DNA of 64,000 bases from Shigella phage JK23. Below, one piece after another: positions 29,536-61,889 of the stretch. The position numbers and the translations under genes are program-made. The stretch lies in sequence record MK962752. One strand, given 5' to 3'. The notes under the pieces are model-generated. The model was not told the origin of the DNA, searched no databases, and saw nothing but the letters and a program-made list of their open reading frames with translations. Numbering within the stretch: position 1 is the stretch's first letter; each line of letters opens with the position of its first letter.

Positions 29536-30754
<1,219 letters not shown>

Positions 30755-32189: not shown

Positions 32190-33777
<1,588 letters not shown>

Positions 33778-57974: not shown

Positions 57975-58124
57975 TTACTGCATGACTGTGATAACTGTCA
58001 TGATAACACGTTGAATTCCGAACGCAAGAAGACCTCCTGCTACGGCTGGAACAACGCCTAAACCCGCCAGTAAAATGCTACCAGATACTAATGCAGCGCT
58101 TGTAATACCTATGAATGGACTCAT
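57975..58124 (-). CDS. small hydrophobic membrane peptide, 49 aa
   Basis: ATG overlapping gene 52 stop (ATGA); almost entirely hydrophobic; below track threshold. Confidence 0.5.
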   Translation of the reverse strand: MSPFIGITSAALVSGSILLAGLGVVPAVAGGLLAFGIQRVIMTVITVMQ

Positions 58125-59449
58125 TTGATTTCCTCTAAATCTTTGGTGTATTCTGTAACTACATCAGTAGTTTTCCAATATTCGTTTTCTTCTTTTTTAG
58201 CTTTAGCTTCTTCAGCAAGTTTCTTCGCTTCATCGGAAGTCATATGAAAAATATTCATTCCAACTAGTTTATCAACATAAGAAGAATACATATCGATTTT
58301 CGAAAGTTCTTCGGTCAGTTCTTTACGAGTTTTACCCTGTACAACAATTTCACCTGAAATTACTTTCTTAATGAAATGTGCCTTGGCAAAGGCTAAACGA
58401 AAAGCGGACTCAGTTTCTTTGATTTTGTTATCAATTCGTTTTTGGACATAAGTTTTACGAACTTCAACGAAGTCTTTGATTAAATCAACTACATTATCGT
58501 AAACTTGCAGCTTTCCTTTCTCATTAATGACGGTAATATTCTGAGAACGACGCTCAATCAACCCGAAGTCTTTCATAATTTTTGCATGGCGTTCTTCTTC
58601 ATTATCGCTCAAAGAGTATTCTTTTCGGAATTTAACTTTGAAGCCAAAGCCATGCTCACCACAAGCATCATCCCATGTAATGAAGCCTTTATCTTCAAGC
58701 GGGTCTAAGATTTTACTCACATAAGTTTCACGATCATACTTATATGGAATCTCAGTGATATGCATTTGAGTTCGTGAAGTAAACTTATATGTTCCACGAA
58801 TTTCATATTGCCCATCAATTTCAACGACTTCACCACGAAATTCTGGGAATTCTACCTTCGGTTTAGTTACTTTCTTTCCTTGAAGAGCTTGCAGTACAGC
58901 TTTCTTGACAGAAGAAACACTATGAGGAAGAATGTAAGTTGCATAACCAGTTGCAATACCGGAAACGCCATTAAGAAGAACAGTAGGAATAATAGGCAAA
59001 TAGAAAGCAGGCGGAATGTGTTCTTTATCTTGATGTACTGGAGCATATTCAGTATCTTTATATACGTTATAGAAATTTTTACTTACACGAGCAAAAATAT
59101 AACGACTTGCTGCTGCCTTTTGGACAGTACGAGAACCAAAGTTTCCTTGACCGTCTAACAGAGGAAAGTTATTATTCCAAGTGTTAGCCATCAAAGCACC
59201 TGCGTCTTGCGCAGAGTTTTCACCATGATGATATCCAAGGTCCGCTACACCACCTGCAATAGAAGCAAGTTTGTGAAACTTATCTTTATTTCCTCGCGCC
59301 AAATCAAGAGCTCGAGCAATAACAAATCGTTGAACTGGCTTAAATCCATCAATCATATTTGGGATAGCACGATTTTCAACCGTGTACATAGCATAAGCCA
59401 ATGCTTCATTATCAATGATACTTTTTAAATCGCGATTATTCAGTTGCAT
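58121..59449 (-). CDS. 52: DNA topoisomerase II medium subunit gp52
   Basis: 442 aa; GyrA-like breakage-reunion domain. Confidence 0.92.
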   Translation of the reverse strand: MQLNNRDLKSIIDNEALAYAMYTVENRAIPNMIDGFKPVQRFVIARALDLARGNKDKFHKLASIAGGVADLGYHHGENSAQDAGALMANTWNNNFPLLDGQGNFGSRTVQKAAASRYIFARVSKNFYNVYKDTEYAPVHQDKEHIPPAFYLPIIPTVLLNGVSGIATGYATYILPHSVSSVKKAVLQALQGKKVTKPKVEFPEFRGEVVEIDGQYEIRGTYKFTSRTQMHITEIPYKYDRETYVSKILDPLEDKGFITWDDACGEHGFGFKVKFRKEYSLSDNEEERHAKIMKDFGLIERRSQNITVINEKGKLQVYDNVVDLIKDFVEVRKTYVQKRIDNKIKETESAFRLAFAKAHFIKKVISGEIVVQGKTRKELTEELSKIDMYSSYVDKLVGMNIFHMTSDEAKKLAEEAKAKKEENEYWKTTDVVTEYTKDLEEIK

Positions 59450-59453
59450 AAAT

Positions 59454-59594
59454 TTACCATACTAGTGAATGTAGTGCCATAATAACATCAGAAATGAAAA
59501 GCACGACTTGAATTAATCCGAACATTACTCCGTAATATAGTGCTACCAATAAAGCAGCAAGGGCTAATGAATAGCCCAAGATTTTCTTAATCAT
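59454..59594 (-). CDS. small hydrophobic membrane peptide, 46 aa
   Basis: ATG ORF MIKKILGYSLALAALLVALYYG...; below track threshold. Confidence 0.5.
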   Translation of the reverse strand: MIKKILGYSLALAALLVALYYGVMFGLIQVVLFISDVIMALHSLVW

Positions 59595-59742
59595 TAGATA
59601 ACAACACAAATGTTAAATATGCACACATACCCTGGGCTAAAGCCTGTGAAAACACACTACTGACATCGATACAGATAGTTAAAATACATGCTACTATCCA
59701 ACAAATAAATGAAATAATTCCAATAATTTTTGCAGTATTCAT
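59587..59742 (-). CDS. small membrane protein, 51 aa (possible Ac homologue)
   Basis: ATG with GAGGAG Shine-Dalgarno; 51 codons, the size of T4 ac in the same neighbourhood; identity not verified. Confidence 0.5.
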   Translation of the reverse strand: MNTAKIIGIISFICWIVACILTICIDVSSVFSQALAQGMCAYLTFVLLSND

Positions 59743-59752
59743 AGTATTCTCC

Positions 59753-59839
59753 TCAACTATTTTTAAAACCTAAAATACCGAAGTTTTTAAGATTGTTACG
59801 ATAGAACTGCATCACATGTTCGTTATGGAAATTACTCAT
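59753..59839 (-). CDS. stp: Stp peptide (activator of host PrrC anticodon nuclease)
   Basis: 28-aa [21 protein letters not shown]...; N-terminal 18 residues match remembered T4 Stp. Confidence 0.7.
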
Positions 59840-60005
59840 ATATACCACACATTTTGCATAAACGTTCAAAACAGATATATCCACCACCAAAACACATCAC
59901 TATAGCAACTTTATCATTAAATGGAGCACCAAAGGCCATAAAGGCTCCAACCATTGTGAATAAAACTAAAACAAATATATAACCCGTTACGAGTAGACGT
60001 TTCAT
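59832..60005 (-). CDS. small hydrophobic membrane protein, 57 aa
   Basis: ATG overlapping ndd stop; stop overlaps stp start; hydrophobic with Cys cluster. Confidence 0.5.
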
Positions 60006-60460
60006 TAGTAAGCCTGCAGGATGAATTTAAAGTTATCAGCCAAGATACGGTTCATTTCTTCAAGTGTTTGATACTCAGAATGATGGTTACGAGTAAACGC
60101 CAAAGCTAACTGACCTTTTCCAAATCCTGTCGTCAGAGGTTTCATCTTAGAAGCAGGAAGATAAAATACTGTGTATGGAACATTGTTATTTGCAATAGTA
60201 CGTGCAAGCTGAGACCGACGTTGACGAATATGACTTAGAACTGCACTGAATCCTTGCTTAGAACGCTGATTACCTACATAAAATCGTGCAGATACGCATG
60301 GACTACTAAATGGACCACCGAGTTTACTCACTAAAAAGTAAAATCCAGGTTTAGACAAAATGTCTTTGTGCGGAGTTCCCAAAAACCACTCACCACCCTT
60401 GATTGTACCAATAACAGTAGCGCCTGCATTATTCAGATCAGTAACAGTCATATATTTCAT
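60005..60460 (-). CDS. ndd: Ndd nucleoid disruption protein
   Basis: Track start is upstream non-ATG; ATG at 60460 with GAGGA Shine-Dalgarno gives 151 aa starting [16 protein letters not shown]. Confidence 0.88.
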
Positions 60461-60520
60461 ATTAATTTCCTCTAAATTATTTTCTACTCCAAGGCCGTAT
60501 GAATACACACGGCCGATAAA

Positions 60521-60736
60521 TTAATCGTCGCAGTCGACGCTCAATTCCCAGAATTCTTCTACGGTATAAGTTTCAGTATCATTTTCAATACAGAAACGTT
60601 CATTACTATTATTTTCTAAAGTAGCGTTAACTGTCATTTTCTCGCTGGTGCTCTTAAGAGGTGAAATACGAATTAACTGATCACCGTTATCTAAACAAAA
60701 AATTTCACCAACTTTTACATCTTTAAAACTTTTCAT
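60521..60736 (-). CDS. hypothetical protein
   Basis: 71-aa ATG ORF. Confidence 0.55.
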   Translation of the reverse strand: MKSFKDVKVGEIFCLDNGDQLIRISPLKSTSEKMTVNATLENNSNERFCIENDTETYTVEEFWELSVDCDD

Positions 60737-60851
60737 AATTCACCTCAAGGAGTATAAAATCCAAATGCAGTTGTTGACCATCCCATCCAATATGGGAAAT
60801 TTGCACCAATGTAAAACATAAGAATATAAAATCAACCGCTCAGCAAATTCA

Positions 60852-61049
60852 TCATTTTACACCATTCCAAATTATTTCAACCACGGATTTTAAACCGTTT
60901 TGATGAATATCCATTCCGACTACCGTCATCAAATAAATTCCAACTACAACTGAACCTAAGGCAAAAATCAGCATGAAAATGAATAAAGCCGGAAAAATAT
61001 TATCGAAAAACCATTCAATAAATGTAAAAGCACTGCGTTTACGCTTCAT
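60852..61049 (-). CDS. small membrane protein, 65 aa
   Basis: Track start is TTG; ATG at 61049 with GAGGAAAAT Shine-Dalgarno; hydrophobic core. Confidence 0.5.
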   Translation of the reverse strand: MKRKRSAFTFIEWFFDNIFPALFIFMLIFALGSVVVGIYLMTVVGMDIHQNGLKSVVEIIWNGVK

Positions 61050-61056
61050 ATTTTCC

Positions 61057-61170
61057 TCACATAAATCCAAAGTAAGCGTTTAATACATCAATCATTAAAA
61101 CGATTGGGAATATACTCAAAACTACTAGTATTATAACTACATTCCATATAGCTTTAACAATCTTTTTCAT
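61057..61170 (-). CDS. small membrane peptide, 37 aa
   Basis: ATG with GGAGG Shine-Dalgarno downstream of an early promoter; track ORF extends upstream through the promoter. Confidence 0.45.
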   Translation of the reverse strand: MKKIVKAIWNVVIILVVLSIFPIVLMIDVLNAYFGFM

Positions 61171-61235
61171 TTTCTGTTCCTCCGTAGTTGATAGAGTAAT
61201 AATACCACAGAGGAACAGTCTTGTAAACAACTTTT

Positions 61236-61334
61236 TTAAAAATATTCGTAATAAATGTGAATACCAACTACTACCGCTGAAACCTGTGCAACCCACCACG
61301 CACAAGCAATAAGTACAGAATTCAAAATTTTCAT
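61236..61334 (-). CDS. small hydrophobic peptide, 32 aa
   Basis: ATG with GAGG Shine-Dalgarno; hydrophobic with WW; below track threshold. Confidence 0.4.
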   Translation of the reverse strand: MKILNSVLIACAWWVAQVSAVVVGIHIYYEYF

Positions 61335-61413
61335 AATAACCTCATTACAAAAGTAAATGTTAAACAAATTACTGGAATACTAATTAACCAAACAAAACAC
61401 CACCATAATGAAC

Positions 61414-61677
61414 TCATAGTTCAATCTCAGCGATTTTCATTTCATTACTATTAATAGCCGCTTTAAGACTATCTGAAAGAATTACATTCCAATGGTCATT
61501 CATATGACCATTAACTAAACGTGTAATTTCTTCAGGAGTTGAAAAATAAGGCTGATCGGACTCCCAATGCGATAATCCTAAGCGAGTATAAATCATGCCT
61601 TCATCATCGCTAGAATATTCAACTGACACAAACTCATCAGTTATTTTATGCTTAGCATAATAAAATTTAAATTTCAT
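61414..61677 (-). CDS. hypothetical protein
   Basis: Track start is TTG; first ATG at 61677 gives 87 aa. Confidence 0.55.
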   Translation of the reverse strand: MKFKFYYAKHKITDEFVSVEYSSDDEGMIYTRLGLSHWESDQPYFSTPEEITRLVNGHMNDHWNVILSDSLKAAINSNEMKIAEIEL

Positions 61678-61682
61678 TTTAC

Positions 61683-61889
61683 TCAATAATCCGCTAAAAG
61701 ATCAACGATTGCATCACGAAGACACTTATTCGCAATACGTTTAAGAGCAATTTCAGTTTCTGGAGCATTTTGAATAATCATCGAATTCAACTCAGCCTCA
61801 GCAAATTGAAGTTCTTTAACTAGTTCAGCTTTATATTTCCCTTGCCCTTTCTTAGCTTTTGCTCGTTTTAATTCAGCTGTAGTAAACAT
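61683..61889 (-). CDS. hypothetical protein, 68 aa
   Basis: ATG at 61889 with GGAGAATAAA Shine-Dalgarno just downstream of an early promoter; track ORF extends through the promoter. Confidence 0.55.
   Translation of the reverse strand: MFTTAELKRAKAKKGQGKYKAELVKELQFAEAELNSMIIQNAPETEIALKRIANKCLRDAIVDLLADY

What the first reader, a model, noticed from the sequence alone, without database searches (positions are those of the whole stretch)
59753..59839. Stp peptide gene present, implying an arms race with the host PrrC anticodon nuclease
A 28-codon ORF encodes [28 protein letters not shown]; the first 18 residues match Stp as I remember it from T4, the peptide that inactivates EcoprrI restriction and thereby unleashes the PrrC tRNA-Lys anticodon nuclease. 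The same window carries the tRNA repair pair pseT (29536-30441) and rnlA (32190-33314), which heals the PrrC cut. The C-terminal third of Stp differs from my recollection of T4, which could alter its interaction with the host Prr complex.
Basis: partly seen in the sequence, partly recalled or inferred. Interest (0 to 1): 0.35.

Follow-up and report, generated by a model that had tools for sequence, protein, structure and literature searches.

The report
Ordinary T-even phage stp gene
This is the well-known stp gene of T4-like phages, here in exactly the version carried by phage T6, next to the equally standard tRNA-repair genes pseT and rnlA, so it is a correct but ordinary annotation.

Summary
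On the minus strand, 59839 to 59753 encodes [28 protein letters not shown]. Residues 1-18 are identical to T4 Stp, and 20 of 24 aligned residues match. The whole peptide is identical to the annotated Stp of phage T6; the DNA matches at 86 of 87 bases, with one synonymous change. It passes Pfam PF08133 (53.6 bits, cut-off 25) and lies at the canonical position, 52 / 52.1 / ac / stp / ndd. The window is a Tequatrovirus about 97% identical to phage Paracelsus.

pseT (29536-30441) and rnlA (32190-33314) are confirmed. They are nearly identical to T4 polynucleotide kinase and RNA ligase 1.

The C-terminal difference is the known T2/T6-type tail. It occurs in 38 phage records, whereas 461 records fall in the identity band of T4 itself. 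Published work says the N-terminal 18 residues carry the function, that removing eight C-terminal codons only moderately lowers both activities, and that tail polymorphism among T4 relatives was already described.

The gene reflects a lineage-wide trait and says nothing about this phage's host.

Side observations:
- A 57-aa membrane ORF is inserted between ndd and stp.
- No phage record has that ORF together with a T6-type tail.
- Unannotated Stp-like peptides occur in unrelated siphophages.

Verdict: already known, low interest.

The parts
59753..59839 (-). stp: 28-codon gene plus TGA stop, encoding [28 protein letters not shown] (T6-type allele)
   Evidence: ORF and translation. Identical to T6 Stp AXN58297.1. 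86 of 87 nt identical to T6. 18/18 N-terminal residues identical to T4 Stp. Pfam PF08133 at 53.6 bits. PHROG 6763.
29536..30441 (-). pseT: polynucleotide 5'-kinase/3'-phosphatase (Pnk), the healing enzyme of tRNA repair
   Evidence: 301-aa ORF. Pfam AAA_33 plus HAD_PNKP. Full-length match to T4 Pnk, PDB 1LTQ, E=3.9e-190, with the kinase P-loop GCPGSGKS and the phosphatase motif DVDGT both present.
32190..33314 (-). rnlA (gene 63): RNA ligase 1, the sealing enzyme of tRNA repair
   Evidence: 374-aa reading from the ATG; the mechanical ORF list extends it to a GTG at 33350. Pfam RNA_lig_T4_1 plus T4_Rnl1_C. Three visible substitutions over 374 residues against T4 Rnl1, PDB 2C5U, with the motif I lysine context TKEDGS present.
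59832..60005 (-). Context only: a 57-aa predicted membrane ORF inserted between ndd and stp. Its start overlaps the ndd stop (TAATG) and its stop overlaps the stp start by 8 nt (ATGAGTAA), so it sets the translational context of stp in this phage.
   Evidence: ORF list. Absent from T4, T2 and T6, present in vB_EcoM-101117BS1. PHROG 5941, unknown function, E=2.9e-20. No Pfam hit.
60005..60460 (-). ndd (synteny anchor upstream of stp)
   Evidence: Pfam Phage_T4_Ndd, E=6.3e-91, residues 1-151.
59587..59742 (-). ac (synteny anchor downstream of stp)
   Evidence: 51-aa ORF. PHROG 2501. The corresponding gene is annotated 'acridine resistance protein' in T4 and T6.

Best explanation
The ORF is the stp gene of a Tequatrovirus (T4-like phage), in the allele carried by phage T6. 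By orthology with T4 Stp, the peptide is made early in infection and binds the host's type IC restriction-modification complex (EcoprrI, also EcoR124I), blocking DNA restriction. In the minority of hosts whose type IC locus carries prrC, that same binding unmasks the latent PrrC anticodon nuclease, which cuts tRNA-Lys 5' of the wobble base. [quoted passage not shown] SHOWN here: the sequence identity of all three genes, their intact motifs, the conserved gene order, and purifying selection on the Stp core. INFERRED from T4 work: expression timing, binding to the Hsd complex, PrrC activation, and repair. The functional determinant is the invariant N-terminal 18 residues. The T6-type tail ([10 protein letters not shown] against TKGVFGRQ in T4) keeps the G-hydrophobic-hydrophobic-G pattern and is most likely functionally equivalent.
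For: The peptide is identical to T6 Stp and 18/18 identical to T4 Stp over the critical N-terminal segment. It scores above the Pfam PF08133 gathering threshold. Gene order 52 / 52.1 / ac / stp / ndd matches T4 and T6. The first 54 nt are 53-54/54 identical across T4, T2, T6 and vB_EcoM-101117BS1. In the unrelated 43-kb phage hz69 they differ at 5 of 54 positions with no amino-acid change, which shows selection on the peptide. Pnk and Rnl1 are full-length and nearly identical to the crystallised T4 enzymes. The mechanism comes from the literature. [quoted passage not shown]
Against: No experiment I could find in the searchable literature tests the T2/T6-type tail itself. No structure of Stp, alone or in complex, exists in the PDB, and the mode of EcoprrI inhibition is still called unknown in a 2025 review. 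In this phage the direct ndd-stp stop/start overlap seen in T4, T2 and T6 is interrupted by an inserted 57-aa ORF, so expression is inferred and not shown. The promoter scan found no more sites than shuffled sequence.
Confidence: 0.9

Rival explanations
1. The T2/T6-type tail retunes the peptide. For example, it might keep type IC anti-restriction while weakening PrrC activation, or shift the preference to other type IC or PrrC variants. On this reading the allele would be a step in the arms race and not a neutral polymorphism.
For: The tail differs from T4 at nearly every codon, including synonymous positions, while the core DNA is almost invariant. The two tails are therefore old, separately maintained alleles joined at codon 18/19. 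The T6-type tail is less basic (+1 against +2) and more hydrophobic. A third tail class (RIKKMLNSTNC) exists in siphophages.
Against: Deleting eight C-terminal codons of T4 Stp only moderately lowers both activities, and residues needed for nuclease activation mostly coincide with those needed for EcoprrI inhibition (PMC3014915). G21, G24 and the two hydrophobic residues between them are conserved between tail types. Phages with this tail keep intact pseT and rnlA, as this window does, which does not suggest that they escape PrrC.
Confidence: 0.1
2. The gene is retained for a target other than type IC restriction and PrrC. T-even DNA carries glucosylated hydroxymethylcytosine and is not expected to be a type I substrate (my own knowledge, not tested here), so anti-restriction may not be the selected function in this lineage.
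For: The 18-residue core is perfectly conserved across hundreds of Tequatrovirus records, although prr is an optional, sporadic host locus. [quoted passage not shown] The inhibition mechanism is still described as unknown.
Against: The only demonstrated activities of Stp are type IC inhibition and PrrC activation. Stp-like peptides are also conserved in Drexlerviridae and other siphophages. If their DNA is unmodified, as I assume for T1-like phages without having tested it, classical anti-restriction gives a straightforward selective advantage.
Confidence: 0.12
3. The gene is a silent relic in this phage. Insertion of the 57-aa ORF broke the ndd-stp translational coupling, so the peptide is no longer made.
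For: In T4, T2 and T6 the stp ATG overlaps the ndd stop (TAATG). Here that ATG starts the inserted ORF instead. Only a weak Shine-Dalgarno-like GTGGT lies upstream of the stp ATG.
Against: The ORF is intact with no substitutions relative to T6. The inserted ORF's stop overlaps the stp ATG by 8 nt (ATGAGTAA), which recreates a coupling arrangement. The same arrangement is kept in about 25 other phages with intact stp.
Confidence: 0.04
4. The real product is longer: 31 aa from the GTG at 59848, or 45 aa from the TTG at 59890.
For: The mechanical ORF list extends to the TTG at 59890. The annotators of vB_EcoM-101117BS1 chose the GTG three codons upstream, giving VVCMSNF....
Against: In T4, T2 and T6 the upstream sequence is the end of ndd in another frame, so no extension is conserved. 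All family members, including the siphophage copies, begin at or close to MSNF/MSSW. The extension would lie wholly inside the 57-aa ORF.
Confidence: 0.03

Closest known systems
Stp of phage T6 (AXN58297.1, MH550421)
   Same: All 28 residues are identical and 86 of 87 nt are identical. The downstream neighbours ac and 52.1 are the same.
   Different: In T6, stp directly abuts ndd (TAATG). In the window a 174-nt ORF lies between them.
Stp of phage T4 (AAD42660.1), the experimentally characterised prototype
   Same: Residues 1-18 are identical, including the 4-14 segment where loss-of-function mutations cluster. G21 and G24 are conserved and positions 22-23 stay hydrophobic. The locus is the same.
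   Different: The tail is [10 protein letters not shown] (10 residues) against TKGVFGRQ (8 residues), giving 28 aa against 26 aa. The window's tail has one fewer positive charge and is more hydrophobic.
Stp of phage T2 (AYD82853.1)
   Same: Residues 1-26 are identical.
   Different: T2 has one extra A in the terminal A-run, so it ends ...GFKK (27 aa) instead of ...GFKNS.
Other sensors of restriction inhibitors, such as Ronin (HsdMS plus RonA) described as 'decoy immunity'
   Same: The logic is the same: a phage anti-restriction factor binding an Hsd complex releases a toxic effector (bioRxiv 10.1101/2023.04.06.535777).
   Different: The effector and the trigger are different. Nothing in this window relates to Ronin; it is a host system.

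Membership tests
Stp / anticodon nuclease activator family (Pfam PF08133, PHROG 6763) | Scores above the curated family threshold | tested here: met
   PF08133 at 53.6 bits against a cut-off of 25, E=1.5e-14, residues 1-24 aligned to profile positions 1-24 of 26. PHROG 6763 E=6.7e-18.
Stp / anticodon nuclease activator family (Pfam PF08133, PHROG 6763) | Very short peptide (T4: 26 aa) with the almost invariant N-terminal 18 residues [18 protein letters not shown] | tested here: met
   28 aa, with 18/18 residues identical to T4. The review states near-absolute conservation of these 18 residues among T4 relatives.
Stp / anticodon nuclease activator family (Pfam PF08133, PHROG 6763) | Residues 4-14, where suppressor (loss-of-function) mutations cluster, are intact | tested here: met
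   [11 protein letters not shown] is identical to T4. The mutation cluster is described in PMC3014915.
Stp / anticodon nuclease activator family (Pfam PF08133, PHROG 6763) | Conserved T-even locus between ndd and ac, same strand | tested here: met
   The order is 52, 52.1, ac, stp, [57-aa insert], ndd, all on the minus strand, as in T4 and T6. The adjacency to ndd is interrupted by the inserted ORF.
Stp / anticodon nuclease activator family (Pfam PF08133, PHROG 6763) | Inhibits type IC restriction (EcoprrI, EcoR124I) and activates latent PrrC | not testable with these tools
   This is a biochemical and genetic property known for T4 Stp only. I found no data for the T6-type allele.
T4-type polynucleotide kinase/phosphatase (Pnk, pseT) | N-terminal P-loop kinase domain plus C-terminal HAD-type 3'-phosphatase domain with a DxDxT motif | tested here: met
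   Pfam AAA_33 (residues 6-148) plus HAD_PNKP (159-301). GCPGSGKS and DVDGT are visible in the alignment to 1LTQ.
T4 RNA ligase 1 (Rnl1, gene 63 / rnlA) | Nucleotidyltransferase domain with the motif I lysine, plus the Rnl1-specific C-terminal domain | tested here: met
   Pfam RNA_lig_T4_1 plus T4_Rnl1_C. Full-length alignment to 2C5U with TKEDGS conserved.

The most novel reading that the evidence does not exclude
Stp may be a modular peptide: an invariant core of about 18 residues that binds the Hsd complex, joined to interchangeable tails. At least three tail classes exist: the T4 type KTKGVFGRQ, the T2/T6 type [11 protein letters not shown], and the Tls-like siphophage type RIKKMLNSTNC. 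Recombination would swap tails at the core/tail boundary, and the tails would tune which type IC or PrrC variants are inhibited or triggered. The window would then be a new recombinant, with a T6-type tail behind an upstream segment carrying the insert. Its tail could, for example, lower PrrC triggering.
Probability: 0.08. Interest if true: 0.4.

Novelty: already known. Interest (0 to 1): 0.07.

Why it matters
It matters little beyond correct annotation. stp is often left unannotated because it is so short; many of the matching records show no stp feature under the match. Recognising it correctly marks the phage as carrying the classical Stp / Pnk / Rnl1 module that defines the textbook EcoprrI-PrrC arms race. 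If the tail alleles did differ in function, they would give a natural panel for dissecting how a 26-28-residue peptide both blocks a type I restriction enzyme and trips its guard nuclease, a mechanism that still has no structure. Nothing here suggests that this copy is special.

Tried and rejected
- The plus-strand reading of the coordinates has an internal stop, so the gene is on the minus strand.
I replaced it with a degenerate DNA pattern scan of IMG/VR.
- A PDB sequence search with Stp gave only chance hits (E about 1) to glutamyl endopeptidase and botulinum neurotoxin, so no solved structure exists.
- Structure prediction was not possible because the tool needs at least 30 aa.
- The promoter and terminator scan of 59300-61800 found 13 promoter-like sites against 11.4 ± 2.8 in shuffles, which is uninformative.
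- The primary paper, Penner et al. 1995 (PMID 7791212), is not held. Its content is cited only through the review PMC3014915.
- One literature search failed on a two-letter term. The repeat found no recent work on Stp variants.
- The phage-record tblastn (809 records) and the IMG/VR scan had already settled identity and allele distribution.
- I could not measure how often prrC occurs in E. coli genomes, because no prrC sequence was available to use as a query.
- I considered a phage-borne tRNA-Lys as an alternative bypass of PrrC. The window has no tRNA genes.

Full report
**1. Observation**

The finding gives coordinates 59753-59839 without a strand. The plus-strand reading has an internal stop. 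On the minus strand, the ATG at 59839 opens a 28-codon frame ending in TGA. T4 Stp, translated from the annotated stp CDS of AF158101, is [26 protein letters not shown]. The claim that the first 18 residues match T4 is therefore exact. G21 and G24 also match, giving 20 of 24 identities in tblastn. The match is not chance:
- Pfam PF08133 ("Anticodon nuclease activator family") scores 53.6 bits against a gathering score of 25, E=1.5e-14.
- PHROG 6763 ("activator of host PrrC lysyl-tRNA endonuclease") gives E=6.7e-18.

**2. What the window is, and the gene's context**

A 24-kb stretch of the window is 97.4% identical to Escherichia phage Paracelsus, and 96-97% identical to many other Tequatrovirus genomes such as RB14. 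The window is therefore a T4-like phage that is not itself in the phage collection.

All local genes lie on the minus strand, in this order:
- gene 52, topoisomerase II medium subunit (58121-59449)
- 52.1 (59454-59594, Pfam DUF7396)
- ac (59587-59742)
- stp (59753-59839)
- a 57-aa ORF (59832-60005)
- ndd (60005-60460, Pfam Phage_T4_Ndd, E=6.3e-91)

This is the T4 and T6 gene order, apart from the extra 57-aa ORF.

**3. Which allele it is**

The peptide is 100% identical to the annotated Stp of phage T6. At the DNA level the two genes differ at one synonymous position, TTC against TTT in codon 20. T2 Stp is identical through residue 26. It ends ...GFKK because of one extra A in the terminal A-run, which shifts the frame onto an earlier stop.

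A tblastn search restricted to E≤1e-7 recovers 38 phage records with this T2/T6-type tail:
- 3 identical records, all of them T6
- 8 T2-type records
- 21 records with one substitution, including Paracelsus, where the gene is annotated "type IC restriction inhibitor"
- 6 records with two substitutions

By contrast, 461 records fall in the 80-90% band, which is where T4 itself falls at 83.3%. The C-terminal third that "differs from T4" is therefore the minority but long-known T2/T6 allele.

The two tails are homologous and not unrelated. T-K-G-V-F-G-R-Q aligns with [10 protein letters not shown], with both glycines kept and V/I and F/L as conservative changes. The T6-type tail carries one fewer positive charge and is more hydrophobic.

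**4. Evidence that the peptide is under selection**

The first 54 nt are 53-54/54 identical among T4, T2, T6, vB_EcoM-101117BS1 and the window. The tail codons, by contrast, differ even at synonymous positions: GGC/GGT, GTC/ATT, TTC/TTA and GGA/GGT. In the unrelated 43-kb phage hz69, the same 18 codons differ from the window at 5 of 54 positions without any amino-acid change. This is the signature of purifying selection on the peptide.

**5. The repair pair**

ORF 29536-30441 (-) encodes 301 aa. It carries Pfam AAA_33 plus HAD_PNKP and aligns end to end with T4 polynucleotide kinase (PDB 1LTQ, E=3.9e-190). Both the P-loop GCPGSGKS and the phosphatase motif DVDGT are present.

ORF 32190-33314 (-) encodes 374 aa. 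It carries RNA_lig_T4_1 plus T4_Rnl1_C and shows three visible substitutions against T4 RNA ligase 1 (PDB 2C5U, E=3e-254).

**6. Mechanism**

The following is established for T4 and inferred here by orthology. According to the review PMC3014915, PMC1484252 and a 2025 review (PMC12707154):
- It alleviates restriction by the type IC enzymes EcoprrI and EcoR124I, but not by type IA enzymes.
- PrrC is held latent by association with the EcoprrI Hsd proteins.
- Activation needs GTP hydrolysis, unmodified EcoprrI DNA sites and dTTP.
- PrrC cuts tRNA-Lys 5' of the wobble base.
- Pnk and Rnl1 heal and seal the cut.

The same review gives three further points. Suppressor mutations cluster at residues 4-14. 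Deleting eight C-terminal codons only moderately lowers both activities. An alignment of eight T4 relatives shows near-absolute conservation of the N-terminal 18 residues with polymorphism in the rest.

Since the window's peptide has the complete core and a tail seen in T2 and T6, the most likely reading is that it works like T4 Stp. I put confidence in this at about 0.9. The mode of EcoprrI inhibition is still described as unknown, and no structure of Stp exists in the PDB.

**7. What the gene does and does not imply**

The stp / pseT / rnlA trio is standard equipment of the genus. prr is an "optional" locus of E. coli, and PrrC homologues occur sporadically. The gene therefore documents a lineage-level arms race, and it is not evidence that this phage's host carries PrrC. 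I could not measure the frequency of prrC in E. coli genomes because I had no prrC sequence to use as a query.

**8. Rivals**

- **(a) Tail-tuned specificity.** This is not excluded, because I found no assay of the T6-type tail. It is made unlikely by the C-terminal deletion result and by the retention of both repair genes.
- **(b) A target other than type IC restriction.** T-even DNA is glucosyl-HMC modified (my own knowledge, not tested here), so anti-restriction might not be the selected function. This remains an open question in the field, and this copy does not address it.
- **(c) Silencing by the inserted ORF.** This is unlikely. The insert's stop overlaps the stp ATG (ATGAGTAA), about 25 other phages keep the same arrangement with an intact stp, and the ORF carries no substitutions.
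- **(d) A longer product from an upstream GTG or TTG.** This is unlikely, because no extension is conserved in homologues.

**9. Local mosaicism**

No phage record aligns across the whole of 59745-60015. Records with the 57-aa ORF align only from query position 39 or 41 onward, roughly the stp core/tail boundary, at 85-92% identity. Where I checked it (vB_EcoM-101117BS1), the Stp tail in such a record is the T4 type. Records with the T6-type tail align only over query positions 1-102 (window 59745-59846, tail, core and a few upstream bases). The window therefore combines a T6-type tail with an upstream segment carrying the insert, and the apparent joint lies in the conserved core. This is ordinary T-even mosaicism and I attach no functional claim to it.

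**10. Verdict**

The feature is already known, being identical to T6 Stp. Interest is low.

Noticed in passing
window 59832-60005 (-): A 57-aa ORF ([57 protein letters not shown]) is inserted exactly between the ndd stop and the stp start. It is hydrophobic, has four Cys, and looks like a small membrane protein. It is absent from T4, T2 and T6. About 25 Tequatrovirus records carry it at about 85% nt identity, and phage ESCO10 at 91.8%. It matches PHROG 5941 (unknown function) and has no Pfam hit.
   Followed up: partly
window 59745-60015: No record in the phage collection combines the T6-type stp tail with the inserted 57-aa ORF. Alignments break near stp codon 18/19, so the window looks like a recombinant joined within the conserved stp core.
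   Followed up: partly
L005 1483-1575 (Shigella phage Sf12, Drexlerviridae); L006 1501-1581 (Salmonella phage phSE-2, Tlsvirus); L038 2501-2578 (Escherichia phage hz69, 43 kb); IMG/VR loci L011-L016, L021-L028, L030, L032, L033, L035, L037: Unannotated Stp-like peptide ORFs occur in siphophage records and IMG/VR contigs of about 32-53 kb that are unrelated to T4. hz69 has [25 protein letters not shown], with a core identical to T4. Sf12 has [30 protein letters not shown]. A third tail class, [14 protein letters not shown][HQY]RIKK[MI][LI]NSTNC, occurs in Tls-like phages. In phSE-2 the ORF lies about 800 bp upstream of a CDS annotated as polynucleotide kinase. The window's Stp also weakly matches PHROG 28068, which has unknown function. 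I did not determine whether this spread has been described before.
   Followed up: partly
L007 1203-1283 and 1501-1569 (Dhakavirus IME281); also L029 and L034 (JS98): IME281 has an intact, diverged stp ([26 protein letters not shown]). It also has a second T4-type stp remnant with no start codon (..[24 protein letters not shown]) about 220 bp downstream. This looks like a leftover of gene replacement or recombination.
   Followed up: partly
L020 238-~460 (IMG/VR contig 3300023038_000081): Here the Stp reading frame runs on without a stop into a 74-aa ORF ([34 protein letters not shown]...). This is either an Stp fusion or the loss of its stop codon.
   Followed up: no
L004 813-854 (phage T2, MH751506): In T2 the ac gene downstream of stp is annotated as only 42 nt, so it appears truncated relative to T4, T6 and the window.
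   Followed up: no
L002 1688-1846 and 1857-2012 (vB_EcoM-101117BS1): This relative carries two adjacent CDSs annotated 'acridine resistance' where the window and T4 have one, which suggests a local duplication or insertion between ac and stp.
   Followed up: no
window 1-64000: ARAGORN finds no tRNA genes in the window, so no phage tRNA-Lys is encoded here that could bypass PrrC.
   Followed up: yes
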